This document shows, one piece after another, positions 34,901 to 61,812 of a DNA stretch of 64,000 bases (positions are counted from its first letter, which is position 1; each line of letters opens with the position of its first letter). The notes beneath the pieces were generated by a model. It saw nothing but the letters and a program-made list of their open reading frames with translations, was not told where the DNA came from and did no database searches. The stretch comes from an uncultured Ignavibacteriaceae bacterium (GTDB lineage Bacteria > Bacteroidota > Ignavibacteria > UBA10030), in assembly GCA_964581115.1 (NCBI GenBank), contig CAZOMY010000006.1:314-64313 (forward strand). The letters run 5' to 3'. The position numbers and the translations under genes are program-made.

Positions 34901-37159
34901 ATGATGAACCTACGACGATGTCTCCTTCGACCGCTGACGATGACTTCGGCGGTCCTGACGCTTGTCAACGCACAGCCGCAAACCGCAACGCCGTTCCGTT
35001 CGACGCCGGTGATCGAACGGCGCGTTGACTCGCTCCTTTCACTGATGACGCTGGAGGAGAAGCTCGGCCAGCTGAATCAGCGATCGGCTCGTTGGAATAC
35101 CGGACCTGGAAGGATGGACGCAGACTCGACCATGCGTGCCTCTCTGCGCCGCGGGGAGATCGGGTCGTTCTTCAACATCACGGGTGCTGGGGCGACCACG
35201 GAGGTTCAGCGGATCGCGGTCGAGGAGACCCGACTTCGCATTCCGCTCATCTTCGGACTTGATGTCATCCACGGCTATCGAACGATCTTTCCCATACCCT
35301 TGGCGGAGGCGGCGACGTTCGATCCCACCCTGATTGAAGAGGCTTCGCGTGTGGCTGCCGTTGAAGCGACGGCGGCGGGCGTGCACTGGACATTTGCGCC
35401 AATGGTTGACATTGCCCGGGATCCGCGATGGGGTCGGATCGCCGAAGGTGCCGGAGAGGATCCCTTTGTGGGCCGTCAGATGGCCGCCGCCCGCGTTCGC
35501 GGATTCCAGGGTCCTTCATTCAACGATCGGACGTCCCTCCTGGCGTGTGCAAAGCATTATGCGGCGTATGGCGGCGCCGAGGGGGGGCGCGACTACAACA
35601 CCGTCGATGTTTCCGAGCGAACGCTCCGGGATGTCTATCTACCGCCGTTCAAAGCCGCCGTCGATGCGGGCGCAGGTACGTTGATGGCTGCGTTCAACGA
35701 GATCGGCGGCGTGCCCAGCTCTGCGAATCCGTACCTGCTCCATCAGGTACTCCGGCGCGAGTGGGGGTTTCAAGGATTCGTCGTCAGCGACTGGACATCG
35801 GTGAATGAGCTTGTGTTGCACGGCGCGGTTTCCGATCGCACCGAGGCCGGCATCGCAGCGCTGCGGTCGGGCGTCGACATGGACATGGAGTCGAAGATCT
35901 ACGCGGATGAGCTGGTCGCCGCCGGACAGTCGGGGGCGTTGTCCGTCGCCGTCGTCGACGAGGCGGTCCGACGCGTTCTCCGGGTCAAGTTCGCGAAGGG
36001 ACTGTTCGAGGATCCATACCGCGGGACCTCCGTTTCCGCTGAACGGGCGGCCATGGTGACCCCTGCTCATCGGGCGCTCGCGCGACGCGTCGCACAGCGG
36101 TCGATCGTGCTGCTGAAGAATGAGCGCGGAACCCTGCCGTTGCGGACCGACCTTCGATCGATCGCGGTGATCGGACCGTTGGCGGCGAGCACATCCGACC
36201 CGCTCGGGTGCTGGGCCGGACTGGGCGACACGACAGACGTGGTCAGTCTGTTGGAAGGGATCAAGCGGACGGTCGGCGGTAGGACCAAGGTCCGCTACGA
36301 ACGGGGATGCGAGGTCGAAGACGTATCGACGAAGGGATTTCCAAAGGCGTTGGCTGCCGCGCGGGCGTCGGAGGTGGTCGTGCTGGCCTTGGGCGAATCG
36401 CGCAACATGAGCGGCGAGGCATCGAATCGATCGTCCCTTGACCTGCCGGGCGTTCAGCAACAGCTGTTGGAACAGGTTGTCTCCGTCGGCAAGCCGGTGG
36501 TCCTGGTACTTATGAACGGGCGGCCACTCTCCGTCACCTGGGCGGCGGAACATGTGCCGGCCATCGTCGAAGGTTGGTTTGGCGGCATCGAGGCGGGGAA
36601 CGCGCTGGCCGACGTGCTCTTCGGCGCGGTCAACCCCAGTGGACGCCTGCCGGTATCCGTGCCCCGTTCGGTCGGGCAGGTCCCGTGCTATTACAATCAC
36701 AAGAACACGGGCCGCCCGCCATCCCAGGATCATTACACATCCAAGTATCTTGATCTGCCGGCCTCGCCGCTGTATCCGTTCGGATTCGGATTGTCATACA
36801 CCTCCTTCCGATACGGAACCGTGGAACTCTCTTCGCCGTCGGTCGGCTGGAATGACACCCTGTGGGTATCGGTGAGCGTGACGAATGCGGGGACAAGGTC
36901 GGGGGAGGAGGTCGTACAGCTGTACATCCGTGATCGGGTGGGAAGCGTCACGCGACCGGTGAAAGAGCTCAAGGGTTTTCTGCGAATCAGCCTTGCCCAA
37001 GGAGCGACGACGACGGTGCGATTCGCTCTGACGGCGGACGACCTGGCGTTCTGGAATGCCGAGATGCATTTCACGGCCGAGCCGGGTTGGTTCGACGTGA
37101 TGGTCGGAGGCAATTCCGTCGACACGCAGAGCGCGGCCTTTGAGCTCCGGCGTCGCTGA
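34901..37159 (+). CDS. Glycoside hydrolase family 3 beta-glucosidase (BglX-like), secreted/periplasmic
   Basis: ORF 34865-37159; ATG-ATG at 34901 gives a signal peptide (MMNLRRCLLRPLTMTSAVLTLVNAQP). GH3 motifs GLDVIHGYRTIFPIPLAEAATFDP and GFQGFVVSDW (nucleophile Asp region). C-terminal FnIII-like domain. Confidence 0.9.
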   Translation: MMNLRRCLLRPLTMTSAVLTLVNAQPQTATPFRSTPVIERRVDSLLSLMTLEEKLGQLNQRSARWNTGPGRMDADSTMRASLRRGEIGSFFNITGAGATTEVQRIAVEETRLRIPLIFGLDVIHGYRTIFPIPLAEAATFDPTLIEEASRVAAVEATAAGVHWTFAPMVDIARDPRWGRIAEGAGEDPFVGRQMAAARVRGFQGPSFNDRTSLLACAKHYAAYGGAEGGRDYNTVDVSERTLRDVYLPPFKAAVDAGAGTLMAAFNEIGGVPSSANPYLLHQVLRREWGFQGFVVSDWTSVNELVLHGAVSDRTEAGIAALRSGVDMDMESKIYADELVAAGQSGALSVAVVDEAVRRVLRVKFAKGLFEDPYRGTSVSAERAAMVTPAHRALARRVAQRSIVLLKNERGTLPLRTDLRSIAVIGPLAASTSDPLGCWAGLGDTTDVVSLLEGIKRTVGGRTKVRYERGCEVEDVSTKGFPKALAAARASEVVVLALGESRNMSGEASNRSSLDLPGVQQQLLEQVVSVGKPVVLVLMNGRPLSVTWAAEHVPAIVEGWFGGIEAGNALADVLFGAVNPSGRLPVSVPRSVGQVPCYYNHKNTGRPPSQDHYTSKYLDLPASPLYPFGFGLSYTSFRYGTVELSSPSVGWNDTLWVSVSVTNAGTRSGEEVVQLYIRDRVGSVTRPVKELKGFLRISLAQGATTTVRFALTADDLAFWNAEMHFTAEPGWFDVMVGGNSVDTQSAAFELRRR

Positions 37160-37218
37160 ATCGGCTCATTGTCCCGGCCTGGCGGGTAGGCGACCGGTCG
37201 GGTGATCGTCGGGGGGGC

Positions 37219-37274
37219 TTGACAAGAACCCCGAAAAGTCCTAATTTGCCGCCGTCAAATGTAAACGTTTACAT
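37219..37274 (+). promoter_or_regulatory. Sigma70-like promoter (TTGACA-17 bp-TAATTT) with a perfect 16-bp LacI-family operator palindrome ATGTAAACGTTTACAT
   Basis: TTGACA at 37219-37224. TAATTT at 37242-37247 (17-bp spacer). Perfect palindrome at 37259-37274 matching the LacI-family consensus (TGTAAACGTTTACA). It sits at or just downstream of the predicted +1, 34 nt before the lacI-family start. Confidence 0.5.
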
Positions 37275-37307: not shown

Positions 37308-38360
37308 ATGCGATCTACGATCAAGGATGTCGCCGAGCAGGCGAAGGTTTCGATCGCCACCGTTTCGCGGGCCTTCAACGAAGAGGGGAAGGTCCGCGAG
37401 GGAACGCGACAGCGCATCCTCGCCGTGGCGCAGAAGCTGAAGTACACGCCCAACGCCGCGGCACGCAATCTCATCATGAACCGGACCGAGGCGATCGGAT
37501 TGCTGTTGCCCGACCTCCACGGCGAGTTCTTTTCGGAGATCATTCGCGGCGCCGACGAGGCGGCCCAGGAGCGCCGCCACCATCTGATCGTCTCCAGCTC
37601 GCACAACGACCGCTCCGAGATCGAGGCGGCCCTCCGCTTCATGCGAGGGCGCGTCGACGGACTCGTGATCATGTCTCCCCAGATCGAGTCCGACTTGCTT
37701 CTGGCGAACCTCTCGAAGTCCCTGCCCGTCGTCCTCCTCAACTGCCGGCTTGAGAACACGGTTTACGACACGATCACGGTCGACGGCTACGGCGGGTCGC
37801 GCGACATGGTCGGATATCTCATTTCGCAAGGCCACCGGCGGATCGCGATCATCAAAGGCGGCGATAACAACTTTGAGGCCCTGGAACGTCTCCGCGGATA
37901 TCGCGCGGCACTCATTGCGGCCGGCATCCGTCCGGAGCGGCAATTGGAACTCTCGGGCGATTTCACCGAGGCTTCCGGCTACGATGCGGCTCGCCGTCTT
38001 CTGGCGATGCACCCGCATCCGACGGCCGTGTTCGCATCCAATGACTCCATGGCCATCGGAGCCATTGGCGCGTTCCACGAACATGGCATCCGGATCCCTC
38101 AGCAGGTCTCGATGTGCGGGTTCGATGATATTCCGATCGCGAAGTACATCCGCCCGGCCTTGTCAAGCGTCCATGTGCCGATCCACGATATGGGTCGCAT
38201 GGCCGTGAACCGGCTGTTGGACCGGGTCGAAAAAAGGATGCGAAAGCATCCGGCGCACATTCTTGTCCCGACGGGACTCGCCGTTCGCGCCTCCATCCGC
38301 CGGCTGTCGGGATCCGGCGTGCGGGCTTCCACGGTGCGGGCAACGACATCGAAGAAGTAA
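37308..38360 (+). CDS. LacI-family transcriptional regulator
   Basis: 350 aa. N-terminal HTH (TIKDVAEQAKVSIATVSRAFN). Periplasmic-binding-protein-like sugar-binding core with C-terminal FDDIPIAKYIRPALSSVHVP. Confidence 0.9.
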   Translation: MRSTIKDVAEQAKVSIATVSRAFNEEGKVREGTRQRILAVAQKLKYTPNAAARNLIMNRTEAIGLLLPDLHGEFFSEIIRGADEAAQERRHHLIVSSSHNDRSEIEAALRFMRGRVDGLVIMSPQIESDLLLANLSKSLPVVLLNCRLENTVYDTITVDGYGGSRDMVGYLISQGHRRIAIIKGGDNNFEALERLRGYRAALIAAGIRPERQLELSGDFTEASGYDAARRLLAMHPHPTAVFASNDSMAIGAIGAFHEHGIRIPQQVSMCGFDDIPIAKYIRPALSSVHVPIHDMGRMAVNRLLDRVEKRMRKHPAHILVPTGLAVRASIRRLSGSGVRASTVRATTSKK

Positions 38361-38422: not shown

Positions 38423-40384
38423 ATGAATCTCCGTTCACACCTGACGCTGCTGGTTGTCTTGACGGCTGTGCTGACCGCCGCCGTGCTGGGCCAGCCGGTC
38501 CGGAAAGACGCCGTCTGGGCCCGAACGGTCCCGGCCGGTACGATCACGCTCGACGGCATGTTGAATGAAGCCGCGTGGGCGACGGCCGAGTCGGTCGAGG
38601 TCCGATGGGGCAACGTTCACACGGCGCACGAACCGGGCAGCGGCTATCGGGTCGAGCAAGGTACGTCGACCCCGACCGACCCGACGAATGCCATGATCAA
38701 GTTCCTCGTGTCGAGCGACAACAAGATGTACGTCGCCGTCTGGGCGAAGGACAGCTCGATCGGCGGCGGATTGTTCAACAAGTTCGACGGTCTCCTGATG
38801 AACATCCGCGACCGTTCAAAGCCGGACCGCCCCGTTCCGCCGTTTGAGTACTTCTATGGATGGGTGACGGAAGGATGGGCCGACCCGACGACGGGCAATG
38901 TCGGCGCCTCTCCCGGCTTCTTCGGATGGGCCGGCGGGAAGCGGACCGATTCGACCGGCGGAGTGAAAAACGCCGACATCTGGGATGCCGTCACCAAGGT
39001 CTACGGAGTCTCCAACAGCGACACGCTGGCCAACGGCACGCTGACGAGGGATACCGCGTGGGTCACGGAGCTGATGTTCAACCTCACCTTGCGCGGATAC
39101 GACGTCACGCAGCCGAGCGGAGACATCGTGATGTACAACATCTCCATCTACGACGCCGACTGGCAGTGGCCGCTCGACACGGTCAAGTTCGCGGGCAATC
39201 GTACCTGGCTCCAGGGTCCGTGGGGCAATGGCAACGGGCACAATCACCTCCGCATCTTCGCCCGTCCGACGGTCACGCCGACATCGGGCGCCGTACCGGC
39301 CGTGAACCCGGATTTCGTGATCCCGCAAGCAAGCGCCAATCCGACGATCGACGGCAACCTGAGCGACGCCGTCTGGTCGCAGTTCGGCTCGGAGCGTACG
39401 TTGAAGATCAAGTACGGCGATAACGCGCTGCGGAGTTCATACAAGTACACCATGCCCTATCGCAGCGGACAGTACCAGCCGTCCGTGTACGGCGCCAAGC
39501 CCGACGTGCTGGATCCTGCTGAAGCCGACGTCAAGATGTTCTTCAACGGCGACACGCTCTACATCGGAGTCGACGTGAAGGACAACGTCGTCCAATACCG
39601 GCCGGAGTTTGACCGTCAGGACGGCTTCCGGCTGATGATCAAGGACCGGACAAAGCGTGTCGACGGTGAGTACCACCTTGAAGGCTACGAGCTCTACGTT
39701 CGGGTCGATACGAGCGCGAAGGGCTATGCGCTCGACGGTTTTGCGGCGGTGCTCGACGCGGATACCTTCTCCACAACCGCGATGCGGGGAAGCAAGATCC
39801 GCCTGGCCCTGAAGTCCGGGACGACGGTCGATACGGTCGCCGCGACGAATGACAATGGCTACTCCATCGAGATGAAGATCAACCTGCGGGCGCTCGGGTA
39901 TGCCGCAGGCCGCGGCGACGGCATCGTCTATTTCGGCGCTCTGGTGAACGACGGCGATACCTTCGGCAACACCGGCATTCCGCCGTACGGCAATCGTGTC
40001 TGGTACGCGCAAGAAGGCTCCTGGCCTGATGGCCCCGCCTTTGCGTACATGAATCCCAGCGCCACGACGGATGTGGCGGAAGGAGGCACGGCCGTTCCGG
40101 GTGAATTCCGTCTCTACGGCTCGTACCCGAACCCGTTCAACCCTGAAGCAAAGATCGAATTCGCGATTCCAATGCGGTCGAACGTGAGGGTCAACGTGTA
40201 TGACCTGCTTGGACGCATGGTTGACAGTCAGACGCTGACGATGTTGTCGGCCGGGCGCCATGCCCATCTGTTCAACGGCGCTTCGTTGGCTTCGGGTGTC
40301 TACTTCTACCAGGTCCAGTTGCTCGACCTGACGACGAACAACGTCCTCGACATGAAGTCGGGACGGATGCTTCTCGTGAAGTGA
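38423..40384 (+). CDS. Secreted protein with N-terminal CBM9/DOMON-like carbohydrate-binding-like domain and type-A T9SS C-terminal sorting domain
   Basis: 653 aa. Signal peptide MNLRSHLTLLVVLTAVLTAAVLGQP. N-terminal TLDGMLNEAAWATAESVEV is CBM9-like. The C-terminal roughly 90 aa are a classic T9SS CTD (YPNPFNPEAKIEFAIP...VNVYDLLGRMV...GVYFYQVQL). No catalytic motif recognised. Confidence 0.55.
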   Translation: MNLRSHLTLLVVLTAVLTAAVLGQPVRKDAVWARTVPAGTITLDGMLNEAAWATAESVEVRWGNVHTAHEPGSGYRVEQGTSTPTDPTNAMIKFLVSSDNKMYVAVWAKDSSIGGGLFNKFDGLLMNIRDRSKPDRPVPPFEYFYGWVTEGWADPTTGNVGASPGFFGWAGGKRTDSTGGVKNADIWDAVTKVYGVSNSDTLANGTLTRDTAWVTELMFNLTLRGYDVTQPSGDIVMYNISIYDADWQWPLDTVKFAGNRTWLQGPWGNGNGHNHLRIFARPTVTPTSGAVPAVNPDFVIPQASANPTIDGNLSDAVWSQFGSERTLKIKYGDNALRSSYKYTMPYRSGQYQPSVYGAKPDVLDPAEADVKMFFNGDTLYIGVDVKDNVVQYRPEFDRQDGFRLMIKDRTKRVDGEYHLEGYELYVRVDTSAKGYALDGFAAVLDADTFSTTAMRGSKIRLALKSGTTVDTVAATNDNGYSIEMKINLRALGYAAGRGDGIVYFGALVNDGDTFGNTGIPPYGNRVWYAQEGSWPDGPAFAYMNPSATTDVAEGGTAVPGEFRLYGSYPNPFNPEAKIEFAIPMRSNVRVNVYDLLGRMVDSQTLTMLSAGRHAHLFNGASLASGVYFYQVQLLDLTTNNVLDMKSGRMLLVK

Positions 40385-43158: not shown

Positions 43159-46100
43159 ATGAGAACAACACCCCTTGCTCCCTTGTTGTTTGCGTCGCTG
43201 CTGGCCGGTATCCCGGCGGTTGCGCAGTATCGTCCTGTTGTTCCCAAGAGCCTCAGGGGCAATCTTCAGGCGGAACGACTGGGTGTGCACGATGCCAACA
43301 ATATCCGCACATACTTCTACAACTATGGGATGGTCGGCGACTATCCTCCTGATCCGATCGGAGTGGACCTCAGCGTCTTCCACTCGATGGAGGTTCCCAA
43401 GGGGAGCGGACTGAACTACTCCGACGGGGCCACGCCGTATGTGCTGGCGCGTGTTCCGCTCAATGGCGGCGCCGGACAGAAAGAGCTCATGCTGACCGGC
43501 TACCGTGAACGGCAGGCCTCGGAGCCCTTTGGGCGGTGGGTCATGCGTCTGGAGCCACGACCGGGCTACTTCCAGGAAGACCCCACCATCAATCGCGGTC
43601 GGTCTCCGGCGCTCAGCAACGACGCCCGAACGTGGCCCGACCAGTGGCCCGATCGACTTGCCGATCCCGACGATCCGGGATGGTCCGGGTCGTGGAACGG
43701 CTACTTCGGCAAGCGCGCGGCAGCCGATCAAGAGAGCTTCTTCGTCGTCGACGACGATTACTACACAGCGCTCGATTTCTTTCCCGACAGTCGCGATAAC
43801 ACGCGCCGGGGTCTGGGAATGATGATGGAGGTCCGCGGCTTTCAGTGGGCCAACCCCCAGGCGGGCAATGTTGTCTTCTACCACTACGATGTCGTGAACG
43901 AAGGAACCACCGATTACAACGACAACCTCCTGTTCGGCATCTACATGGATTCCGGAGTCGGAGGGTCGTCCATCTCGTGCGACGGTATCGCCGAATCCGA
44001 CGACGATAACGCGTTCTTCGATCGGTCGCTCGGCTTGAACCTGACGTACACCTGGGATTCCAGGGGCCATGGCGTCGGCTTGTCGAGCACCTGCCTGCGC
44101 ACGGGGTATCTGGGATACGCCTACCTTGAGACGCCCGGCAATCCCTTCGACCTCCGCGACAACGACCTCGACGGTATCACCGATGAGAAGCGCGACGGGG
44201 GGCCCGGCACGCTCATCCAGGGCATGTCGAACATCCGCGCCCACGCCCAGGCCAACTATGACTTTGCCGAATTCGAAGCCTACGGCGGCACACTCGAGAA
44301 TCGTCCCGCCTACAACACGGAGTATTGGTGGACCGGCGACGAGGATATGGATTGGGTCGCGGAGTTCGATGATACGGGCGGCGATGGAGTGTTCGGCACC
44401 AATGACACCGGAGAGGAGGACGGCATCCCGACCGCTGGGGAGGCGAATTTCGATCAGAAAGACATTGAGGAATCTGACCAGATCGGCCTGACCGGATTCA
44501 AGATGAATCGCATCCGAGCCGGTGAAGGAAGCCCGACGACGGAGACCGACGGCATCATCTTCTTCGATGATGGCGTCAAGAACTGGCCCAAGCGGCTCTA
44601 CGACCAATTCACCGACCCGACGGAGAGCAATCGATTCGACCCGCCGCTGGCGCTCAATTACAATATCGGCTTCCTGTTCACCTCGGGGACCTTCCGCCTG
44701 CCGGCGGGGAAACAGGAGCGATTCAGTCTGGCCTTGGCCTATGGCGTTGGATTGGCCGAGCTCCGAACGACCGTCCGGATCGTTCAGCGCATCTACACGT
44801 CGAACTACCAGTTCGTCGTCCCTCCCAAACTGCCTGTGCTCACGGCCGAGTCCGGGGACCGACTCGTCAAGTTGACATGGAGCGACGTTTCCGAGCGAAG
44901 CGCCGACCCGGTCACCCGGAAAATGGACTTCGAAGGATACCGGGTCTATCGCGCCACGGACCCGATCTTCATGGACACGAAGACGATCTCGAACGCCCGC
45001 GGGACCGACAGGATGCCGTTCGGATCCCCTCTCATTCAATTCGACCTGAAGAATGAACACGAGGGATACTCTTCGATCACCGTCGACGGGGTGGCGTATT
45101 ACCTCGGCGCGAACACCGGCGTGCCGCACACCTTCATCGACACGACGGTGACGAACGGCGTAACCTACTACTATGCGGTCTGTGCGTATGACCACGGAGA
45201 TGAGGAGCTGGGCTACTACCCGTCGGAGAACGCGATCAACATCTCCCGGACGCCTCGCGGCGGCACGATCCTTCCCCAGAACGTCGTGGAGGTCCGTCCG
45301 AATCCGCGGGCGCTTGGCTTCTCTGCCGGTTCGACGACGGATGTTGCACGTGTTGCCGGCTCGGGCGAAGGGACGGTCGCGGTACGGGTGGTCAACTCGA
45401 ACGATGTCCCTGACGGGCGGCGACTGCAGATCCGGATGCTGACTTCGGCGCCGGAGAACATCCATGCAGACTACTACCAGATGGTCGACAGCATATCGGG
45501 TACGGTCTATATCGAGCGCGGCACCGACTTTGCCGCAACGGGCAACGGTCCCGTGGGAGCGGGCATCTTGCCCCTGGTGAGCACGATCGATACGCCCACG
45601 CCTGATTCGGCGCGTTCCGGCTTCTCCCCGGGCGCTCAAACGAACGTGCGGCTGACCTTCGCCTACATGCCGGTGCTCCCGGTCAATCGACGCCGGGCGG
45701 GTTACCCGAACGACCTTCGATTCGAGTTCTCCAGTGCCGTTGTGGACACCTCGATACCGCTCAGCTTCATTCTGCCGGCCCGGCCGATCAAGTTCCGTGT
45801 CTGGGCGTTGACCCCCGGCGGTTCGCTGCCGTTGAAGGTGGTGTTCCGCGACGGCTCGGGGAGCGCCGACAGCACGTTGAGCTCCCCGAATGATATCTGT
45901 TATGTCGCCACGCCGAACCCGACGGGTGATTCGCTCATGGCAACCTGGAATGTGAAGGTCGATACGGCCGGAGTCCCCGGCTCGATCGTACCCCCGCAAC
46001 CCGGCGATGTCTACAACCTCCTGCTGAGAATGCCGTTTGTCGACGGGGAGGTCTTCTCCTTCTCGACCTCGGGTCAGCGGATCGATCACCAGAGAGCGGC

Positions 46101-55606: not shown

Positions 55607-56886
55607 ACGTGCGCCTGGCTCAACTGACCGTTGTCGCCGCTTTCTTGGGCCTTTCCTGCGTTTCGGAGGAAGGCGGGCCCGTCGTTGTGCGCTTCTGGGG
55701 GATGGGGAACGAGGGCGAAATGGTGCGAAAACTCATTCCGGAGTTCGAGCGGAGGCATCCGCAGATCCGCGTGGTGGTTCAGCAGATACCGTGGACCGCA
55801 GCCCATGAGAAGCTGTTGACCGCGTTCGCCGGCGAGTCGACGCCGGATGTCTGCCAACTGGGGAACACCTGGATCCCGGAGTTCGGTGTTCTGAACGCCC
55901 TGGAACCCCTCGACCAATGGGTCGCCGCATCGTCCGTCGTTCAACCCCACGACTACTTTGAAGGCGTCGTTCAGATGAATGTCCTCGACTCGACGCTGCT
56001 CGGCATTCCGTGGTACGTCGACACGCGCGTTCTCTACTATCGCCGGGACCTTCTGGCCGAAGCCGGGGCCGATTCGGCGCCGGCGACGTGGGACGGGATG
56101 CTTCGATTGTGCGACCGCATGAAGCGGCGGGCTGAGAAGGCTGGGCGCACCCACTTTCCCTTTTTCCTTCCGACCAATGAGTGGGTGCCGGCCATCATCC
56201 TCGGCACGCAGGCGGGCGGCTCGTTCCTGGCGGACGGCTCGACAAGAGGCAATTTCGGCGGTCCGGAATTCAGGCGCGCCTTTGAGTTGCTGGAGACGTT
56301 CTATCGCCGCGGCTATTCGCCTCCCGGGCAATCGCTCATCACCAACATGTACCACGCCTTCGACGACGGGTTGATCGCGATGTACATCACCGGTCCGTGG
56401 AATATCGGCGAGTTCACCCGCCGGATCCCGGCGGACCGGCAGCACATTTGGATGACTGCTCCGCTGCCCTCCATGGACGACCGAACTCCGGGGGCCTCCT
56501 TGCCGCTCGGCACGAGCCTGGTGATGTTCCGCGGATCGAAGCACAAAGATGAAGCTTGGAAGCTGATCGAGTTCCTCGCCTCGACCGAACAATCCATCGA
56601 GTTCTATCGCATCACGGGCAATCTCCCTCCTCGGCGCTCTGCCTGGTCAGATACCTCACTCGCGAATAACCGCTACGTGCAGGCCTTTTACCGGCAGCTA
56701 CAGCGCGTCGACCCGTTGCCGCCGGTTCCGGAATGGGAACAGATCGTCATCCGCCTTCAATCCTACGTGGAGTTCGTTGCCACCGGTGCGATGACCGTCG
56801 ATGCGGCCGTACCCTCCTTTGACCATGACGTCGACCGGATGCTCGAAAAGCGACGGTGGCTGGCGTCGCAGGAGGGAAGGCCGTGA
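55603..56886 (+). CDS. ABC transporter extracellular solute-binding protein (family 1, sugar/oligosaccharide)
   Basis: ORF 55426-56886. GTG at 55603 overlaps the GH2 stop (GTGA) and gives a signal/lipoprotein-like N-terminus VNVRLAQLTVVAAFLGLSC. SBP_bac_1 features (VVRFWGMG, WTAAHEKL, IPWYVDTRVLYYRRDL). Confidence 0.8.
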   Translation: MNVRLAQLTVVAAFLGLSCVSEEGGPVVVRFWGMGNEGEMVRKLIPEFERRHPQIRVVVQQIPWTAAHEKLLTAFAGESTPDVCQLGNTWIPEFGVLNALEPLDQWVAASSVVQPHDYFEGVVQMNVLDSTLLGIPWYVDTRVLYYRRDLLAEAGADSAPATWDGMLRLCDRMKRRAEKAGRTHFPFFLPTNEWVPAIILGTQAGGSFLADGSTRGNFGGPEFRRAFELLETFYRRGYSPPGQSLITNMYHAFDDGLIAMYITGPWNIGEFTRRIPADRQHIWMTAPLPSMDDRTPGASLPLGTSLVMFRGSKHKDEAWKLIEFLASTEQSIEFYRITGNLPPRRSAWSDTSLANNRYVQAFYRQLQRVDPLPPVPEWEQIVIRLQSYVEFVATGAMTVDAAVPSFDHDVDRMLEKRRWLASQEGRP

Positions 56887-57782
56887 GCTTGCGACTTCAG
56901 GACCGGCGGAAGCAGGCGATCGCCGCCTGGCTGTTTCTGGCCCCGGCGCTTGCCGTCCTGGCCGCGTTCTTTGTCCTTCCCGTGGCGGCCGCGTTTGTCA
57001 TGAGTTTCACCGACTTCGACATCTACGGACTGGGTGACCTGTCGACGGTGCGATTCATCGGCATTGACAATTACGTGCGCATCCTCGACACACCCCTGTT
57101 CTGGACGGCACTTTCGAATACCTTCTACTTCGTCGTCGTCGGCGCTCCGCTTTCGGTCGGCGTCTCTCTGGCGGTTGCGCTCATGGTGAATGCCAGAATG
57201 GCGCGGTTCAAAGGTGTCTTCCGTACGATCTACTTCCTGCCGGTGGTCACCAGCCTGGTGGCCGTCGCGATCGTATGGCGGTACCTCTACCATCCGGCTC
57301 ATGGGCTTCTCAATCATGCTCTGGGCTGGCTTGGCATCGGTCCGGTGGATTGGCTCGGCGATCCGGCGGTGGCCATGCCGGCGATCATTGTGCTGGCGGT
57401 CTGGAAGAACTTCGGCTACAACATGTTGATCTTCGTCGCCGGCCTGTCCAGCATTCCGGAGGATCTCTACGAAGCGGCCCACATCGACGGCGCTTCGGGC
57501 TGGAGACAGTTCATTGACATCACCCTGCCCATGCTGACGCCGACCACGGTCTTCGTGGTCATGATCACGCTCATCGGCTACTTTCAGCTGTTCGCGGAGC
57601 CGTACGTCATGACACAAGGGGGGCCGCTGAACGCAACCCTGAGTGTCGTCCTCATGATGTACGAGCAGGGATTCCGCTGGTGGAACATGGGATACGCGGC
57701 TGCGATCGCCTTCGTCCTGTTCGCCATCATCCTCTTCTTCACGGTCGTTCAGATGTTCGTCCAGCGGAAGGTCGAATCGTGA
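56883..57782 (+). CDS. ABC transporter permease (MalF/UgpA-like, sugar)
   Basis: ORF 56856-57782. GTG at 56883 overlaps the SBP stop. 6 TM helices. The EAA-loop region is EAAHIDGASGWRQFIDITLP. Confidence 0.85.
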   Translation: MSLRLQDRRKQAIAAWLFLAPALAVLAAFFVLPVAAAFVMSFTDFDIYGLGDLSTVRFIGIDNYVRILDTPLFWTALSNTFYFVVVGAPLSVGVSLAVALMVNARMARFKGVFRTIYFLPVVTSLVAVAIVWRYLYHPAHGLLNHALGWLGIGPVDWLGDPAVAMPAIIVLAVWKNFGYNMLIFVAGLSSIPEDLYEAAHIDGASGWRQFIDITLPMLTPTTVFVVMITLIGYFQLFAEPYVMTQGGPLNATLSVVLMMYEQGFRWWNMGYAAAIAFVLFAIILFFTVVQMFVQRKVES

Positions 57783-58600
57783 GCCGGCCCGCTCATCGCG
57801 CACTTCTGCACACTGCACTGATGCTGGTTGCGCTTCTGACCATGACGCCGACGGTCTGGATGGTGGCGGCGTCATTCATGCAGTCCGGAGAGGCAAGCGG
57901 AACGCCGCCGCCGTTCCTGCCGGCGCGTCCGACCTTGGAGCACTATGCAGCGCTCACCGAGCGGATGCAGATGCCGACATACTTCTTCAACAGCTTGCTG
58001 ATCGCGTCGGTCGTGACGTTGGTCTCGCTCGTCGTCAATTCGATGGCCGGATTCGCCTTTGCCAAATACCGCTTTGAAGGTCGGGACCGGCTGTTCAGGG
58101 CTCTCTTGAGCGGGATGGTGGTGCCGGCGCAGGTGACGATGCTCCCGCTGTTCCTGATGATGAAGAAACTCGGTCTGGTGAATACCTACCTCGGTGCCAT
58201 GATCCCGGGGCTTGCCAGCATCTTCGGTATCTTCCTTCTCCGGCAGTTCGTCCGGTCGGTGCCCGACAGCCTGCTGGAGGCTGCCCGTATGGACGGCGCC
58301 GGCGAGTTCAGGATCTACCGCACGATCATCCTTCCGCTCTGCAAGCCCATCCTCCTGACGCTCGCCCTGTTCACCTTCATGGGCATGTGGAACGACTTTA
58401 TGTGGCCCCTCATCATCATGACCGATGACGCTCGATACACCCTGCCCGTGGCGCTGGCCAACCTCATGGGCGAACACGTCTTGGACTTGGAGCTGATGAT
58501 GGCCGGCTCGGTCATCACGGTCCTGCCTGTGGTCATCTTGTTTCTTGCCTTCCAACGCCACTACGTTCGCGGGATCATGCTCGGCGGCGTCAAGGAATGA
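57779..58600 (+). CDS. ABC transporter permease (MalG/UgpE-like, sugar)
   Basis: ORF 57680-58600. GTG at 57779 overlaps the previous stop. 6 TM helices. EAA motif LEAARMDGAGEFRIYRTIILP. No ATPase gene follows. Confidence 0.85.
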   Translation: MSRPAHRALLHTALMLVALLTMTPTVWMVAASFMQSGEASGTPPPFLPARPTLEHYAALTERMQMPTYFFNSLLIASVVTLVSLVVNSMAGFAFAKYRFEGRDRLFRALLSGMVVPAQVTMLPLFLMMKKLGLVNTYLGAMIPGLASIFGIFLLRQFVRSVPDSLLEAARMDGAGEFRIYRTIILPLCKPILLTLALFTFMGMWNDFMWPLIIMTDDARYTLPVALANLMGEHVLDLELMMAGSVITVLPVVILFLAFQRHYVRGIMLGGVKE

Positions 58601-58656
58601 GGCTCTGTCCGGAGGATCCCTGTTTGCTTGATCCGATCACCCAACCTGAGTCCGCT

Positions 58657-61600
58657 ATGAGAAGCATAAGCCTGTTTCTTGCAGTGTTCCTCGCAGCTTC
58701 AAGCGTCCCCGCGCGTGCGCAGTTGATCTATGCAGGTCTGGAGGCAGACGGCGATACCACCGTGTGGCGTGCCTTCCGATCTACAGGGGTGACGAGCGAA
58801 CGGTGCTCCGACGAGGGGCGCGAAGGTCCCGGCTTGCGGATTGATGTGAAGTTCCCTAAGGGCTCCGGCTATGGAGGGGTCTTCCGTACAGTCGAAATCC
58901 CGGTCGTGACCGACTTTCAGATCGTCTTCTGGCTCCGCGCAACGGTGCCGGTGAACAACTTTGAGATCAAGGTCAGCGACGATACCCTTGGCGAGAACAT
59001 CTGGTGGGTGAACCATCGGATGTACGCATATCCTGCAGGATGGAAAAAGCTCGTCGTCAAACGTCGCCACCTCAGCTTCGCCTGGGGACCGCGTCCGGCC
59101 GCGGCGCCGACGGTCCTGCGTCGCCTGGAGTTTGTGGTCACCGCGGGCTCGGGGGGCGAAGGAAGCATCTGGATCGACGACATTTCGATCGAAGAGGTAC
59201 CGCCGATACCCGACCCACTCCCACGGCCGAAAGCCTCGGCATCGAGCGGCGCGCCATCGGCCCGGGCGGCCCTGATTGGGATCGCTGGATCGTGGGACCC
59301 CGGCACGAAGGACAGTGCGTGGTGGCAGGTCGACTGGGGGTACCGGAGGGAGTTCGGCGGCGTCGAACTCGAGTGGGAGGCGGGGCAGACGCCGATCTCG
59401 TACGACCTTTTGACCTCAAATGACGGACGAGCGTTCGAGTCCGTTCGACGGGTCGAACGTGGTGGCGGAGGACGTCGCCTGGTGTTCACGCCCGAGTCCG
59501 AAGGTCGATTCCTTCGCGTGCATGTGCGAAACAACACGGGGGCCCGCCTTCCGAAACTGGCCTCTGTGGATGTCGTATCCTCAGAATCATTGTCGACCCG
59601 GAACGACTACGTCAGCCGACTGGCGCGTCAGCATCGGCGGGGTCTCTTCCCGCGGGGCTTCTTGAAGGAGATGTCATACTGGACCGTCGTCGGCGTTGCA
59701 GACGGACGGCAAGAAGGATTGATCGATGAGGACGGCGCATTCGAAGTGGATAAGCAAGCCTTCTCCCTCGAGCCGTTCGTCTCCCTCGAGCCGACGAAGC
59801 GCTTGATCACCTGGGCTGACGGAGCGTCCGACCAGTCGCTCGAGTCGGGTCGCTTGCCGATCCCGACCGTCAAGCGCAGGGCATCGGACATCGACCTCGA
59901 GATCACGCTTCTTGCTACGGGAACTCCCGAAGCAGCATCGCTGGCGGCTCGATACACGCTGAGGAACCGATCAGCATTGCCGATGCGAGGGACGCTCTGG
60001 CTGGCCGTTCGTCCGTACCAGGTCAACCCTCCTTCGCAATGGCTCAACTTCGACGGAGGAGCGACCTCGATCCGTTCCATCAGGTTCGACGGCACCTCGG
60101 CCGACGTTGACGGGCGTCTCGTACGAGTCTCGGGCATTCCCACGTTCGGAGCCTCGTCGATCGATGAGGATGAAGTGACGGTGCAATTGGCCGCGGGTGT
60201 GGGGCCACGACGGGCGTCCGTTGACGATCCGACCGGATTTGCGTCGGGTGCTTTTGGATGGCCGTTCGCTCTCGCGCCCGATGAATCGTTGGTCTGCGTT
60301 GCGGCCGTTCCATGGACCGATCGCAGTCCCTGGGCGGACCGCCCTCCCACTGTCGAGGAATTTGCCGCCGCGCTCGAACGTGAGCGCAGCCACTGGCGCG
60401 CTCGGACGGAATGGATCCGCTGGACGGTGCCTCCTTCGGCGAGGCGCGTGTTCGACGTGGTGCAAGCGACGCTTGGCTATATTCTCGTCAACAAGGATGG
60501 ATTCGGAATCCAGCCCGGGTCACGGTCATACGAGCGCTCGTGGATGCGCGATGGCACCATGACGTCCGACGCTCTCCTCAAGTTCGGCTTGACCGAGCCA
60601 TCGAAGGCGTTCATCGCCTGGATCGCGCCGTTTCAGTATGAGTCGGGCATGGTCCCATGTGTTGTCGACTCGCGCGGCCCCGACCCGGTGCCGGAACATG
60701 ACAGCAACGGGCAGCTGATCTTCGGGATCATGGAGGTCTTCCGATTCACACGCGACACCGTCTTCCTGCGACAGCACTTCCACCATATCGTCCGGGCGGT
60801 GGACTTCATTCAATCGCTCCGTGCCCTTCGGATGACGCCGGTGTTTCGCGATGGCAACTCGGAACAACGAGCCTTCTACGGCCTTGTGACAGAATCGATC
60901 AGCCACGAGGGATACTCGGCAAAGCCGATGCACTCCTACTGGGACAATTTCTTTACGCTGCGGGGACTCAAAGATGCTGCCGAAGCGGCGAAGGTTCTGG
61001 GTGATGATGTACGGACGGTGACCTTCGACAGCCTGTCGCAGGCGTTTCGCGTTGACCTGTACCGATCGATTGAACAGGCGATGAAAAACCGGGGGATCGA
61101 CTTCATTCCAGGGTGCGTCGAGCTTGGCGACTTTGATCCAACATCGACTTCGATCGCACTCTATCCGGGAGGCGAGTTTCGAGCGGTGCCTCAAGAGCCG
61201 TTGCGCAGGACCTTCGACCGGTACTTCGACTGGTTCATGCAGCGAGCCCGGGGTGAGATCAGCTGGGATGCCTACACGCCCTACGAAGTGCGCAACATCG
61301 GCACCTATGTGTATCTCGGGCAGAAGGACCGGGCCCACACGCTGCTCGATTGGTTCCTGCGCGATCAGCGTCCGTCCGGCTGGAATCACTGGGCCGAGGT
61401 GGTGACGCCGCATGCGCGAACGCCCCGGTTCATCGGCGACATGCCGCATACATGGGTCGGCTCCGACTTCTTGAACGCGGTGCGGGCCATGTTCGTGTAC
61501 GAACGCGATGACGATGGCGCCATCATCGTCGGCGCGGGCTTGCGCGATGCATGGGTGGAGGAAGGCATTGGCGTCCAGAACCTTCCCACCCATGCCGGCC

Positions 61601-61812
61601 CCATAACGCTCGACGTTCGTACGCCCGCAGAGCGCATCGTGGTCGCCCGTTTGGACGGCCAGATCGACCCGGCCAAGCATCCGATCCTCCTGTCGACCGG
61701 ACTCCTCACCGCAACGCTCCGCGGTGCTTCGGTGAATCGGGTCAAGGCGATTCCGGTCGATGGCTACCTGCGCATCGACCGACTTCCGGCCACCGTCGAA
61801 TTGGCATACTGA
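58657..61812 (+). CDS. Large secreted glycoside-hydrolase-like protein: N-terminal discoidin/CBM-like beta-sandwich domains plus C-terminal (alpha/alpha)6-barrel with GH15-like W-x-R-D motif
   Basis: ORF 58597-61812; ATG at 58657 gives the signal peptide MRSISLFLAVFLAASSVPARAQ. Two jelly-roll-like regions (IWIDDISIEE, FLRVHVRNN). The C-terminal roughly 550 aa carry ERSWMRDGTMTSDALLKFG (compare GH15 Y-x-W-x-RD), the helix-rich HFHHIVRAVDFIQSL and PHTWVGSDFLNAV. Confidence 0.45.
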   Translation: MRSISLFLAVFLAASSVPARAQLIYAGLEADGDTTVWRAFRSTGVTSERCSDEGREGPGLRIDVKFPKGSGYGGVFRTVEIPVVTDFQIVFWLRATVPVNNFEIKVSDDTLGENIWWVNHRMYAYPAGWKKLVVKRRHLSFAWGPRPAAAPTVLRRLEFVVTAGSGGEGSIWIDDISIEEVPPIPDPLPRPKASASSGAPSARAALIGIAGSWDPGTKDSAWWQVDWGYRREFGGVELEWEAGQTPISYDLLTSNDGRAFESVRRVERGGGGRRLVFTPESEGRFLRVHVRNNTGARLPKLASVDVVSSESLSTRNDYVSRLARQHRRGLFPRGFLKEMSYWTVVGVADGRQEGLIDEDGAFEVDKQAFSLEPFVSLEPTKRLITWADGASDQSLESGRLPIPTVKRRASDIDLEITLLATGTPEAASLAARYTLRNRSALPMRGTLWLAVRPYQVNPPSQWLNFDGGATSIRSIRFDGTSADVDGRLVRVSGIPTFGASSIDEDEVTVQLAAGVGPRRASVDDPTGFASGAFGWPFALAPDESLVCVAAVPWTDRSPWADRPPTVEEFAAALERERSHWRARTEWIRWTVPPSARRVFDVVQATLGYILVNKDGFGIQPGSRSYERSWMRDGTMTSDALLKFGLTEPSKAFIAWIAPFQYESGMVPCVVDSRGPDPVPEHDSNGQLIFGIMEVFRFTRDTVFLRQHFHHIVRAVDFIQSLRALRMTPVFRDGNSEQRAFYGLVTESISHEGYSAKPMHSYWDNFFTLRGLKDAAEAAKVLGDDVRTVTFDSLSQAFRVDLYRSIEQAMKNRGIDFIPGCVELGDFDPTSTSIALYPGGEFRAVPQEPLRRTFDRYFDWFMQRARGEISWDAYTPYEVRNIGTYVYLGQKDRAHTLLDWFLRDQRPSGWNHWAEVVTPHARTPRFIGDMPHTWVGSDFLNAVRAMFVYERDDDGAIIVGAGLRDAWVEEGIGVQNLPTHAGPITLDVRTPAERIVVARLDGQIDPAKHPILLSTGLLTATLRGASVNRVKAIPVDGYLRIDRLPATVELAY

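What the first reader, a model, noticed from the sequence alone, without database searches (positions are those of the whole stretch)
34901..61812. Candidate beta-1,2-glucan (sophoro-oligosaccharide) utilisation system with a hybrid T9SS, SusD-less TonB receptor and ABC importer architecture
About 27 kb on one strand encodes a GH3 beta-glucosidase, a LacI regulator with its own operator, a T9SS-exported CBM-like protein, a TonB-dependent receptor, a 1132-aa T9SS cargo, a PorV-like barrel, a cytoplasmic GH94 phosphorylase, two paralogous DUF3131/GH144-like (alpha/alpha)6 enzymes, a cytoplasmic GH2-like enzyme, an SBP plus two permeases, and a 1071-aa discoidin-plus-(alpha/alpha)6 hydrolase. The characterised DUF3131/GH144 members are endo-beta-1,2-glucanases and sophorohydrolases. 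One GH94 clade is the 1,2-beta-oligoglucan phosphorylase, and GH3 enzymes finish sophorose. That combination predicts a complete route: surface depolymerisation, TonB uptake, periplasmic trimming, ABC import, then cytoplasmic phosphorolysis. The compartment signals fit the sequence. The GH144-like copy 51327-52970 has a T9SS CTD, the copy 49907-51253 has only a signal peptide, and GH94 and GH2 have no signal peptide. Such loci are known as SusC/SusD PULs in Bacteroidota or as ABC-only loci in Firmicutes. A T9SS-dependent, SusD-less TonB-plus-ABC hybrid for beta-1,2-glucan has, to my knowledge, not been described.
Basis: partly seen in the sequence, partly recalled or inferred. Interest (0 to 1): 0.8.

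Follow-up and report, generated by a model that had tools for sequence, protein, structure and literature searches.

The report
Beta-1,2-glucan locus with undescribed uptake module
This is a real gene cluster for eating beta-1,2-glucan, of a type already sketched in Ignavibacterium album. Its more interesting part is an undescribed three-protein outer-membrane set (TonB receptor, a roughly 1100-residue protein, a PorV-like barrel) that recurs in many nutrient-uptake loci of related uncultured phyla.

Summary
The gene calls hold up. Both PF10091 proteins are GH144, closest to the beta-1,2-glucanase XcSGL. The binding protein is second-closest to Lin1841, which binds sophoro-oligosaccharides. 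The GH3 resembles BT_3567. [quoted passage not shown]

A perfect 16-bp LacI operator lies at 37259-37274 and is conserved in related loci.

The locus is syntenic in dozens of uncultured Fibrobacterota-Chlorobiota-Bacteroidota (FCB)-group genomes, so a beta-1,2-glucan target is well supported by homology and context, not by assay.

The novelty claim is overstated. Kobayashi et al. 2022 (PMC8861115) described an Ignavibacterium album cluster with two GH144, this GH94 type, a TonB-dependent transporter and an ABC importer, and proposed the same route.

What appears undescribed is the outer-membrane module: CBM-CTD protein, non-SusC TonB receptor, a 1087-aa protein with no Pfam domain and a CTD-like tail, and a PorV/PorQ-family barrel.
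- Close relatives of the 1087-aa protein always sit with GH144 or GH94 (46/46 loci).
- Eight of eight distant relatives keep the receptor, ~1100-aa, PorV order next to other gene sets.

I read it as a SusC/SusD-like uptake module; its mechanism is inferred.

The parts
34901..37159 (+). GH3 beta-glucosidase with a signal-peptide-like N-terminus. Predicted periplasmic exo-glucosidase for sophoro-oligosaccharides.
   Evidence: Pfam PF00933, PF01915 and Fn3-like. PDB: 765 bits to JMB19063, 734 bits to 5xxl (BT_3567 by my recollection), 554 bits to Lin1840. It has its own TTGACA-17-TACATA site and no LacI palindrome.
37221..37274 (+). Promoter-like TTGACA-17-TAATTT followed by a perfect 16-bp LacI-type operator, ATGTAAACGTTTACAT, at 37259-37274.
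   Evidence: Sequence read. One exact and one three-mismatch match in the window, 0.02 matches expected within three mismatches. TGTAAACGTTTACA-like sites (up to 2 mismatches) occur 56 times in 39 of 161 related loci, mostly just upstream of the LacI or CBM-CTD gene. My estimate of the chance expectation is about 7.5.
37308..38360 (+). LacI-family repressor
   Evidence: PF00356, PF13377 and PF00532. Syntenic in related loci.
38423..40384 (+). 653-aa CBM9-like protein with a type-A T9SS C-terminal domain. Predicted surface glycan-binding protein.
   Evidence: CBM9_1 28.9 bits (cut-off 23.4), Por_Secre_tail 31.2 bits, TIGR04183 29.2 bits. Present upstream of the receptor in 44 of 44 metagenome loci with room for it.
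40491..43154 (+). TonB-dependent receptor with a SusC-like N-terminal CarboxypepD_reg domain; not a SusC-family member.
   Evidence: Plug, barrel and CarboxypepD_reg. TIGR04056 SusC/RagA scores 78 bits against a cut-off of 368. Directly upstream of the 1087-aa gene in 58 of 59 loci.
43159..46422 (+). 1087-aa conserved protein with no Pfam domain. The N-terminal ~550 aa are Asp/Gly/Trp-rich and highly conserved; then come Fn3/Ig-like beta-sandwiches and a CTD-like tail. Predicted surface partner of the receptor.
   Evidence: No Pfam or PDB match. More than 2243 homologues, all named hypothetical. 6766 representative clusters at E<=1e-3. AF2 mean pLDDT 60; only the C-terminal half is modelled. 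Tail aligns to type-A CTDs.
46438..47448 (+). PorV/PorQ-family outer-membrane barrel, a locus-specific paralogue. Predicted anchor or partner for the CTD-like tail of the 1087-aa protein.
   Evidence: NF033709 183.6 bits (cut-off 90). Below the PorV equivalog (69.7 against 250) and the PorQ equivalog (75.6 against 220). Follows the 1087-aa gene in 68 of 68 loci.
47481..49898 (+). GH94 phosphorylase, 805 aa, no signal peptide. Predicted cytoplasmic beta-1,2-oligoglucan phosphorylase of the Cgs-domain type.
   Evidence: PF17167 and PF06165. PDB: Cgs GH94 domain 549 bits, cellobiose phosphorylase 400, chitobiose phosphorylase 367, SOGP 5h3z 29. GDWNDG and GFRDQLQD motifs shared with Cgs.
49907..51253 (+). 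GH144 endo-beta-1,2-glucanase homologue with a signal peptide only. Predicted periplasmic.
   Evidence: PF10091 246.8 bits. XcSGL 8xul 353.6 bits, CpSGL 5gzh 172 bits. 58% identical to the next gene.
51327..52970 (+). GH144 endo-beta-1,2-glucanase homologue with a signal peptide and a type-A T9SS CTD. Predicted cell-surface or secreted.
   Evidence: PF10091 263.9 bits plus Por_Secre_tail. TIGR04183 31.9 bits. XcSGL 377 bits.
52967..55606 (+). GH2-like clan GH-A glycosidase, 879 aa, no signal peptide. Predicted cytoplasmic; the role is unknown, possibly sophorose hydrolysis or transglycosylation.
   Evidence: Three GH2 Pfam domains above their cut-offs. Best PDB hit only 67 bits. Invariant NE (E395) and NEF (E462) in 10 orthologues.
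55603..56886 (+). ABC substrate-binding protein with a lipobox-like LGLSC. The GTG start overlaps the GH2-like stop codon (GTGA).
   Evidence: SBP_bac_1. PDB: 3uor 396 bits, Lin1841 218 bits, next hit 118 bits. Start codon read.
56856..57782 (+). ABC permease 1
   Evidence: BPD_transp_1. 59-76% identical in related loci.
57779..58600 (+). ABC permease 2. The probable GTG start overlaps the stop codon of permease 1.
   Evidence: BPD_transp_1. Sequence read.
58597..61812 (+). 1071-aa protein with a signal peptide: N-terminal beta-sandwich, F5/8-type-C domain, beta-supersandwich, (alpha/alpha)6 barrel. Predicted periplasmic glycosidase of an uncharacterised family.
   Evidence: PF00754. AF2 pLDDT 85.7, pTM 0.85. 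Foldseek matches GH15, GH94, GH95, GH78 and GH116 folds at 10-13% identity. 1531 homologues, one of them fused to PF10091 (P0222). Recurs in GH144 loci.
61815..63659 (+). SurA-like PPIase with a signal peptide, starting 2 nt after the previous stop codon. Possibly co-transcribed.
   Evidence: Rotamase 32 bits. Start codon read. Homologues in L101 and L164, and a weak one in L167.

Best explanation
The region is a LacI-controlled operon-like array for using exogenous beta-1,2-glucan (linear or cyclic) in an uncultured FCB-group bacterium.

Proposed route (inferred from homology and compartment signals; nothing was assayed):
1. The CBM9-CTD protein and the CTD-bearing GH144 are exported by the type IX secretion system. 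At the cell surface they bind and cut the polymer.
2. Oligosaccharides cross the outer membrane through the TonB-dependent receptor. The receptor works with the 1087-aa protein, which I propose is held at the surface by the adjacent PorV/PorQ-family barrel through its CTD-like tail.
3. In the periplasm, the second GH144, the GH3 and the 1071-aa (alpha/alpha)6 protein trim the chains.
4. The Lin1841-type binding protein and two permeases import sophoro-oligosaccharides. The ATPase is encoded elsewhere.
5. In the cytoplasm, the Cgs-type GH94 phosphorolyses them to glucose-1-phosphate, and the GH2-like enzyme deals with the remaining disaccharide.

The receptor, ~1100-aa protein and PorV-like barrel form a generic, co-diverging module. 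Paralogous copies serve other loci, so I read it as the functional counterpart of SusC/SusD in lineages such as Ignavibacteria, Kryptoniota, Calditrichota and KSB1.
For: Substrate:
- Both GH144 copies are closest to XcSGL (354 and 377 bits), which is specific for beta-1,2-glucan (PMC12102758).
- The binding protein is in the Lin1841 family.
- The GH3 resembles 5xxl (BT_3567 by my recollection) and Lin1840.
- The GH94 is closest to the Cgs phosphorylase domain, which shortens beta-1,2-glucan chains when phosphate is present (PMC10901819).

Context:
- The whole gene order is syntenic in MAGs labelled Bacteroidota, Ignavibacteria, Kryptoniota and KSB1.
- GH94, GH144, the binding protein and the permeases are also linked in Kosmotogaceae, Phycisphaerae and Elusimicrobia.
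- In loci found through the 1087-aa protein alone, GH144 or GH94 is present in 46 of 46, the receptor in 58 of 59, the CBM9-CTD protein in 44 of 44 and PorV in 68 of 68.
- A GH144 fused to the 1071-aa family exists (P0222).

Regulation: the operator is conserved upstream of the LacI or CBM-CTD genes.

Module:
- Eight of eight distant family members keep the receptor, ~1100-aa, PorV order. Their neighbours are GH130/GH38, GH26/GH16, an MGH1-like GH, or phosphoesterases.
- The three proteins diverge in step: 33-36%, 31-37% and 33-41% identity to distant loci.
- The CTD-like tail aligns with genuine type-A CTDs.

The same overall route was proposed independently for the I. album cluster (PMC8861115).
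Against: - No enzyme or binding activity was measured.
- The GH94 clade has no characterised free-standing member, and its source annotation is 'cellobiose phosphorylase'.
- The fold of the N-terminal 550 residues of the 1087-aa protein could not be predicted (pLDDT below 50), so a binding or lid role is only a guess.
- Its tail is below the Pfam and NCBIfam CTD thresholds.
- No physical evidence links the receptor, the 1087-aa protein and the barrel.
- T9SS core genes are not in the window.
- The GH3 lacks the operator.
- Signal peptides were judged by eye.
Confidence: 0.7

Rival explanations
1. The locus targets a different beta-glucan (cellodextrins, laminarin or chitin oligomers). On this reading the GH94 is a cellobiose or chitobiose phosphorylase, as its source annotation says.
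For: The source names the GH94 'cellobiose phosphorylase'. It scores 400 bits to cellobiose phosphorylase and 367 bits to chitobiose phosphorylase. GH3 enzymes are broad beta-glucosidases.
Against: The GH94 scores 149 bits higher to the Cgs beta-1,2 phosphorylase domain and shares its GFRDQLQD motif rather than the GFRDSNQD of cellobiose phosphorylase. Two GH144 genes and a Lin1841-type binding protein are constant partners. No cellulase, laminarinase or chitinase family is in the locus.
Confidence: 0.08
2. The 1087-aa protein is a surface enzyme of a new family, for example one that opens or debranches the glycan, rather than a receptor partner. The PorV-like barrel is then only its secretion shuttle.
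For: The N-terminal half has many invariant Asp, Glu and Trp residues and an unknown fold. It carries a CTD-like tail, as secreted T9SS enzymes do.
Against: The family keeps about 31-37% identity and the same gene neighbours in loci for unrelated substrates: GH130/GH38, GH26/GH16 and phosphoesterases. That is unusual for a substrate-specific glycosidase. Within the GH144 loci it is more conserved (55-70%) than the glycosidases. The acidic motifs (DxDxDG type) look like calcium sites; this is my reading of the sequence.
Confidence: 0.15
3. The PorV-like barrel is a dedicated shuttle or anchor for all three CTD proteins of the locus (CBM9 protein, GH144b, 1087-aa protein). The receptor works alone, and its adjacency reflects co-regulation only.
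For: PorV-family proteins bind CTDs in the canonical T9SS (general knowledge). Three CTD or CTD-like proteins are encoded in the locus.
Against: The order receptor, ~1100-aa, barrel, with gaps of 4-30 nt, is invariant. The other CTD proteins vary or are absent (L169). The three proteins co-diverge.
Confidence: 0.15
4. The locus remodels the cell's own periplasmic beta-1,2-glucans (osmoregulated glucans) rather than scavenging external glycan.
For: GH144-clan and GH94 domains take part in endogenous cyclic glucan metabolism in Proteobacteria (PMC10901819).
Against: The locus has no glucan synthase. It does have a surface-targeted GH144, a CBM-CTD protein, a TonB receptor, an ABC importer and a sugar-responsive LacI repressor. 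All of these point to import.
Confidence: 0.03

Closest known systems
Ignavibacterium album GH144 ('SGL') gene cluster, IALB_1177-1187 (Kobayashi et al. 2022, PMC8861115)
   Same: Two GH144 genes, a GH94 of the Cgs C-terminal-domain type with no signal peptide, a TonB-dependent transporter, an ABC transporter with a Lin1841-like binding protein, and no SusD. The same proposed route: surface GH144, TonB transport, periplasmic GH144, ABC import, cytoplasmic GH94.
   Different: The I. album cluster carries the GH35 transglycosylase IaSGT. The window has a GH2-like enzyme and a 1071-aa (alpha/alpha)6 protein instead, and no GH35 hit. The paper shows the remaining genes as grey arrows ('prediction of functions is difficult'). 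In the passages I read it does not discuss T9SS, the ~1100-aa protein or the PorV-like barrel. I could not read the I. album DNA to confirm that the module is present there.
Bacteroidota SusC/SusD polysaccharide utilisation loci, including the GH144 loci of Chitinophaga pinensis, Parabacteroides distasonis and Bacteroides thetaiotaomicron
   Same: Co-regulated surface binding proteins, a surface endo-enzyme, a TonB-dependent importer with an N-terminal CarboxypepD_reg domain, and periplasmic exo-enzymes. The GH144 and GH3 content is the same.
   Different: There is no SusD, and the receptor fails the SusC model (78 bits against 368). Surface proteins use T9SS CTDs rather than lipid anchors. 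Inner-membrane uptake is by an ABC system, followed by cytoplasmic phosphorolysis. The receptor's constant partners are a ~1100-aa protein and a PorV-family barrel.
Listeria innocua and Lachnoclostridium phytofermentans SOGP loci (Lin1839-1841)
   Same: A Lin1841-type binding protein with two permeases, a GH3 beta-glucosidase and a GH94 phosphorylase for sophoro-oligosaccharides.
   Different: These are Gram-positive organisms with no outer-membrane stage. Their GH94 belongs to the long SOGP clade, to which the window's GH94 scores only 29 bits.
PorQ-PorZ and PorV-PorU pairs of the Porphyromonas gingivalis T9SS attachment complex
   Same: A PorV/PorQ-family barrel is encoded beside, and presumed to hold, a large surface protein that keeps a CTD-like C-terminal domain. 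There is weak similarity of the tail and fold to PorZ (NF052228 E=0.003; 5m11 at Foldseek rank 3).
   Different: The barrel fails the PorV and PorQ equivalog models. The pair is multiplied per locus, sits beside a TonB receptor, and is tied to nutrient loci rather than to the secretion machinery.
Proteobacterial CUT loci (TonB receptor, inner-membrane transporter, CAZymes and a regulator; Xanthomonas)
   Same: SusD-less TonB-dependent glycan uptake under a LacI-type regulator. XcSGL, the closest characterised GH144, and 3uor, the closest binding protein, both come from Xanthomonas. The CUT-locus concept is cited from my own knowledge.
   Different: CUT loci have no T9SS, no ~1100-aa partner and no PorV-like barrel.

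Membership tests
CAZy GH144 (endo-beta-1,2-glucanase / sophorohydrolase) | Sequence membership: PF10091 domain and significant similarity to characterised members (CpSGL, XcSGL, BDI_3064) | tested here: met
   PF10091 at 246.8 and 263.9 bits. 8xul 354 and 377 bits, 5z06 182-201 bits, 5gzh 172-180 bits.
CAZy GH144 (endo-beta-1,2-glucanase / sophorohydrolase) | Conserved general-acid Glu (E211 in CpSGL) and hydrolysis specific to beta-1,2-glucan | not tested
Activity cannot be tested with these tools.
CAZy GH94 phosphorylase | Supersandwich plus (alpha/alpha)6 catalytic domains, and the catalytic Asp in the DWND motif | tested here: met
   PF06165 at 269 bits and PF17167 at 368 bits. GDWNDG aligns with GDWNDG of Cgs and ADWNDC of cellobiose phosphorylase.
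1,2-beta-oligoglucan phosphorylase clade (Lin1839, Cphy_0694 / 5h3z) | Closest similarity to SOGP and a long (about 1080-1120 aa) architecture | tested here: not met
   29 bits to 5h3z against 549 bits to the Cgs GH94 domain. The protein is 805 aa long.
Cgs-type GH94 phosphorylase domain | [quoted passage not shown] | tested here: met
   8rf9 and 8rf0 at 549 bits over residues 8-765. This is 149 bits above the best cellobiose phosphorylase. Activity on sophoro-oligosaccharides is not testable here.
SusC/SusD polysaccharide utilisation locus | Adjacent SusC-family (TIGR04056) and SusD-family genes | tested here: not met
   TIGR04056 scores 78 bits against a cut-off of 368, with only the N-terminal domain matching. 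No SusD-family Pfam hit in any locus protein.
T9SS type-A CTD cargo | C-terminal TIGR04183 / PF18962 domain above the cut-off | tested here: met
   CBM9 protein 29.2 bits and GH144b 31.9 bits, cut-off 23.
T9SS type-A CTD cargo (1087-aa protein) | C-terminal TIGR04183 / PF18962 domain above the cut-off | tested here: inconclusive
   No Por_Secre_tail hit; FlgD_ig E=0.079. The tail aligns with the two genuine CTDs at 28-32% identity with the PNP, G.Y.Y and terminal Lys motifs, and has two insertions.
PorV/PorQ family outer-membrane barrel | NF033709 above the cut-off; the equivalog models distinguish true PorV and PorQ | tested here: met
   NF033709 scores 183.6 bits against a cut-off of 90. The PorV equivalog (69.7 against 250) and the PorQ equivalog (75.6 against 220) are not met, so it is a family member but a distinct paralogue.
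LacI-family repressor with a palindromic operator | HTH_LacI plus a periplasmic-binding-protein fold, and a cognate TGnAAnCGnTTnCA-type palindrome near its promoter | tested here: met
   Pfam. Perfect palindrome 34 nt upstream of the ATG, conserved in related loci. Binding is not testable.
CUT1-type sugar ABC importer | Binding protein, two permeases and an ATPase | tested here: not met
   The binding protein and two permeases are present. No ATPase gene is in the locus. This is common for the family, where a shared ATPase is encoded elsewhere; that point is from my own knowledge.
I. album-type GH144 cluster (PMC8861115) | GH35 transglycosylase IaSGT | tested here: not met
   No Glyco_hydro_35 hit among the locus proteins. 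A GH2-like clan GH-A enzyme is the cytoplasmic glycosidase here.
GH15-like / clan GH-L or GH-Q (alpha/alpha)6 enzymes (1071-aa protein) | Supersandwich plus (alpha/alpha)6 fold, and sequence membership of a named family | tested here: inconclusive
   The fold criterion is met: Foldseek probability 1.0 to GH15, GH94, GH95, GH78 and GH116 at 10-13% identity, TMq 0.33-0.45. No family model is met: TIGR01577 scores 16.6 bits against 820, and PF17389 appears only in some homologues.

The most novel reading that the evidence does not exclude
The TonB-dependent receptor, the ~1100-aa protein with no Pfam domain and the PorV/PorQ-family barrel form a previously unrecognised class of outer-membrane nutrient-import complex. 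A T9SS-exported partner, held by a dedicated PorV paralogue, plays the role that the SusD lipoprotein plays in Bacteroidia. This would be the general PUL architecture of Ignavibacteria, Kryptoniota, Calditrichota, KSB1 and related phyla. The family comprises 6766 clusters at 50% identity with E<=1e-3.
Probability: 0.4. Interest if true: 0.8.

Novelty: new variant of a known kind. Interest (0 to 1): 0.6.

Why it matters
Beta-1,2-glucans are symbiosis, virulence and osmoprotection molecules of Proteobacteria. This locus type is syntenic in MAGs from several FCB-group lineages and turned up repeatedly in metagenome contigs. That suggests beta-1,2-glucan consumers are common among uncultured bacteria, though I did not check which environments the contigs come from.

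The locus also supplies uncharacterised enzyme candidates:
- a free-standing Cgs-type GH94;
- a 1071-aa (alpha/alpha)6 family;
- a cytoplasmic GH2-like family.

More broadly, SusC/SusD is the only well-understood paradigm for TonB-dependent glycan capture in this superphylum. A conserved receptor, ~1100-aa protein and PorV-like trio serving many different loci gives a concrete, testable answer to how SusD-less relatives do the same job. It also links the type IX secretion system directly to nutrient import.

Tried and rejected
- **Fold of the 1087-aa protein.** AF2 with a 36-sequence alignment gave mean pLDDT 60, and the N-terminal 550 residues could not be modelled. Foldseek on that model returned only generic Fn3 strings. 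A profile search of the PDB found nothing, and Pfam on three fragments found nothing.
- **Source organism.** An exact look-up of the 1071-aa protein's contig failed. The taxon is therefore only bracketed by its nearest loci.
- **Literature searches for the module.** The queries were PorV + TonB + PUL + Ignavibacteria; PorV-like + TonB; PUL + Calditrichaeota + T9SS; and Ignavibacteria + SusC/D + T9SS. A search on beta-1,2-glucan PULs was also run. None gave a relevant description.
- **Generic versus glucan-specific role of the 1087-aa protein.** I first asked whether its high conservation meant a generic function. The nearest 80 metagenome relatives were all in GH144 loci. I therefore had to go to distant representatives to see other contexts.
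- **LacI operator upstream of the GH3.** None was found, even allowing 5 mismatches.
- **GH94 tree with reference sequences.** This was not possible offline, so placement rests on bit-score ranking and motifs.

Full report
**1. What is there**

From 34.9 to 63.7 kb the + strand carries a tight array of genes with short gaps or 4-nt GTGA overlaps:
- GH3 (34901-37159)
- a 148-nt gap holding a TTGACA-17-TAATTT site and a perfect 16-bp palindrome
- LacI (37308-38360)
- a CBM9-like protein with a type-A T9SS C-terminal domain (38423-40384)
- a TonB-dependent receptor (40491-43154)
- a 1087-aa protein (43159-46422)
- a PorV/PorQ-family barrel (46438-47448)
- GH94 (47481-49898)
- two GH144 genes (49907-51253 and 51327-52970)
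- a GH2-like enzyme (52967-55606)
- a binding protein and two permeases (55603-58600)
- a 1071-aa protein (58597-61812)
- a SurA-like PPIase (61815-63659)

The region upstream of 34.7 kb holds unrelated housekeeping genes.

**2. Substrate**

Both PF10091 proteins are GH144. Their best solved relative is XcSGL/XCC2207 (354 and 377 bits), followed by BDI_3064 and CpSGL. XcSGL is a beta-1,2-glucanase specific for beta-1,2-glucan (PMC12102758).

The binding protein's top two solved relatives are a Xanthomonas sugar-binding protein (396 bits) and Lin1841, the sophoro-oligosaccharide-binding protein (218 bits). Everything else scores 118 bits or less.

The GH3 scores 734 bits to 5xxl, which I identify from memory as BT_3567, and 554 bits to Lin1840.

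The GH94 has no signal peptide. Its ranking against solved structures is:
- Cgs GH94 domain: 549 bits
- cellobiose phosphorylase: 400 bits
- chitobiose phosphorylase: 367 bits
- cellobionic acid phosphorylase: 270 bits
- laminaribiose and cellodextrin phosphorylases: about 57 bits
- SOGP (5h3z): 29 bits

It shares GDWNDG and GFRDQLQD with Cgs. The Cgs domain shortens beta-1,2-glucan chains in the presence of phosphate (PMC10901819). So the GH94 is neither a cellobiose phosphorylase nor a Lin1839-type enzyme. It is a free-standing relative of the Cgs phosphorylase domain, whose activity is inferred.

**3. Context**

A scan of one genome per species with the GH94 returned 80 loci. A tblastn search with all the window's locus proteins shows the whole order in MAGs labelled Bacteroidota, Ignavibacteria, Kryptoniota and KSB1: LacI, CBM9-CTD, receptor, 1087-aa, PorV-like, GH94, two GH144, GH2-like, sometimes GH3, binding protein, two permeases, sometimes the 1071-aa protein. 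The nearest locus is only 70% identical in the GH94.

GH94, GH144, the binding protein and the permeases are also linked in Kosmotogaceae, Phycisphaerae and Elusimicrobia.

The LacI palindrome has one exact and one three-mismatch copy in the window, against 0.02 matches expected within three mismatches. Similar sites cluster upstream of the LacI or CBM-CTD genes in 39 related loci: 56 sites, against about 7.5 expected by my estimate. The GH3 has its own promoter-like site and no operator.

**4. Prior art**

Kobayashi et al. 2022 (PMC8861115) describe the Ignavibacterium album GH144 cluster. [quoted passage not shown] They propose surface GH144, TonB transport, periplasmic GH144, ABC import and cytoplasmic GH94.

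That paper marks other genes as hard to predict. In the passages I read it does not mention T9SS.

**5. The outer-membrane module**

The 1087-aa protein has no Pfam, NCBIfam or PDB match. It nevertheless has more than 2243 homologues, all named hypothetical, at 58-71% identity across KSB1, Calditrichota, Ignavibacteria, Eisenbacteria and Zhuqueibacterota.

AF2 modelled only the C-terminal half, as beta-sandwich domains plus a terminal sandwich. The tail aligns with the two genuine type-A CTDs of the locus.

The next gene is a PorV/PorQ-family barrel: NF033709 at 183.6 bits against a cut-off of 90, and below both equivalog models.

In 80 metagenome loci retrieved through the 1087-aa protein alone:
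- the receptor lies upstream in 58 of 59;
- the CBM9-CTD protein lies upstream in 44 of 44;
- the barrel lies downstream in 68 of 68;
- GH144 or GH94 is present in 46 of 46.

At this level of similarity the protein is thus a dedicated component of GH144 loci.

A full HMM search of 1.84 billion representative proteins shows a far larger family: 6766 clusters at E<=1e-3 and 904 at E<=1e-30. I looked up eight distant members. All eight keep the receptor, ~1100-aa protein, PorV order. In five of them a CTD-bearing protein (CBM or FG-GAP type where a domain was recognised) lies just upstream of the receptor, and a LacI gene lies upstream in three. Their neighbours are different gene sets:
- GH130 and GH38;
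- GH130 with an ABC system;
- GH26 and GH16;
- an MGH1-like GH;
- two-component regulators;
- in one case phosphoesterases and a kinase.

Against these loci the three proteins diverge together: 33-36%, 31-37% and 33-41% identity. The receptor fails the SusC model, and no SusD is present.

I infer a co-evolving three-protein uptake unit that stands in for SusC/SusD. The barrel would hold the CTD-like tail, as PorQ holds PorZ. This is inference; no interaction was shown. Four literature searches found no description of it.

**6. Other enzymes**

The 1071-aa protein gives a confident model (pLDDT 85.7). It has N-terminal sandwiches, a discoidin domain, a supersandwich and an (alpha/alpha)6 barrel. 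It resembles GH15, GH94, GH95, GH78 and GH116 structures at 10-13% identity.

It has a signal peptide and 1531 homologues, one of which is fused to GH144. It recurs in GH144 loci. It is probably a periplasmic glycosidase of an unnamed family.

The GH2-like protein keeps NE and NEF motifs in ten orthologues and is likely an active clan GH-A enzyme. In the cytoplasm it may handle sophorose.

The two GH144 copies are 58% identical. Each is closer to the other than to the second GH144 of related loci, which suggests a local duplication with loss of the CTD.

**7. Verdict**

The claimed architectural novelty was anticipated in 2022. The interesting residue is the generic receptor, ~1100-aa protein and PorV-like module, and three uncharacterised enzyme families tied to beta-1,2-glucan.

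Noticed in passing
window 61815-63659: A SurA-like PPIase gene with a signal peptide starts 2 nt after the stop codon of the 1071-aa gene. Homologues directly follow the PorV-like gene in L164 and close the GH144 locus in L101. It may be a dedicated periplasmic chaperone for the module.
   Followed up: partly
L168 1-23354: Two sets of the ~1100-aa protein with a PorV-like barrel lie in one locus. One set has its TonB receptor in view. The neighbours are a metallophosphatase, a GDPD phosphodiesterase and a PfkB kinase, with no CAZymes. The module may therefore not be restricted to glycans.
   Followed up: no
window 49907-52970: The two GH144 genes are 58% identical to each other but only 45-49% identical to the second GH144 of related loci. 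This suggests a lineage-specific duplication of the CTD-bearing copy, followed by loss of the CTD.
   Followed up: partly
window 34700-37159: The GH3 sits upstream of LacI with its own TTGACA-17-TACATA site and no operator. In related loci (L001, L006, L071) the GH3 lies inside the operon, between the GH2-like gene and the binding-protein gene.
   Followed up: partly
L081 15945-19502; L121, L137, L138, L148 and L159 near position 100-900 (minus strand): Some GH144 loci carry a different, longer GH94 (1185 aa in L081; 26-37% identical to the window's). It may be of the SOGP type. If so, two GH94 lineages were recruited to the same kind of locus.
   Followed up: no
protein P0222: A 1516-aa protein fuses a PF10091 (GH144) domain to the 1071-aa family. 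This is a gene-fusion link between that uncharacterised (alpha/alpha)6 family and beta-1,2-glucan.
   Followed up: no
window 52967-52970, 55603-55606, 57779-57782, 58597-58600: Four consecutive gene junctions have 4-nt overlaps. Two were read as GTGA (55603, 57779). The other two follow from the ORF coordinates, which list an ATG start for both downstream genes. This suggests translational coupling from GH144b through to the 1071-aa gene.
   Followed up: partly
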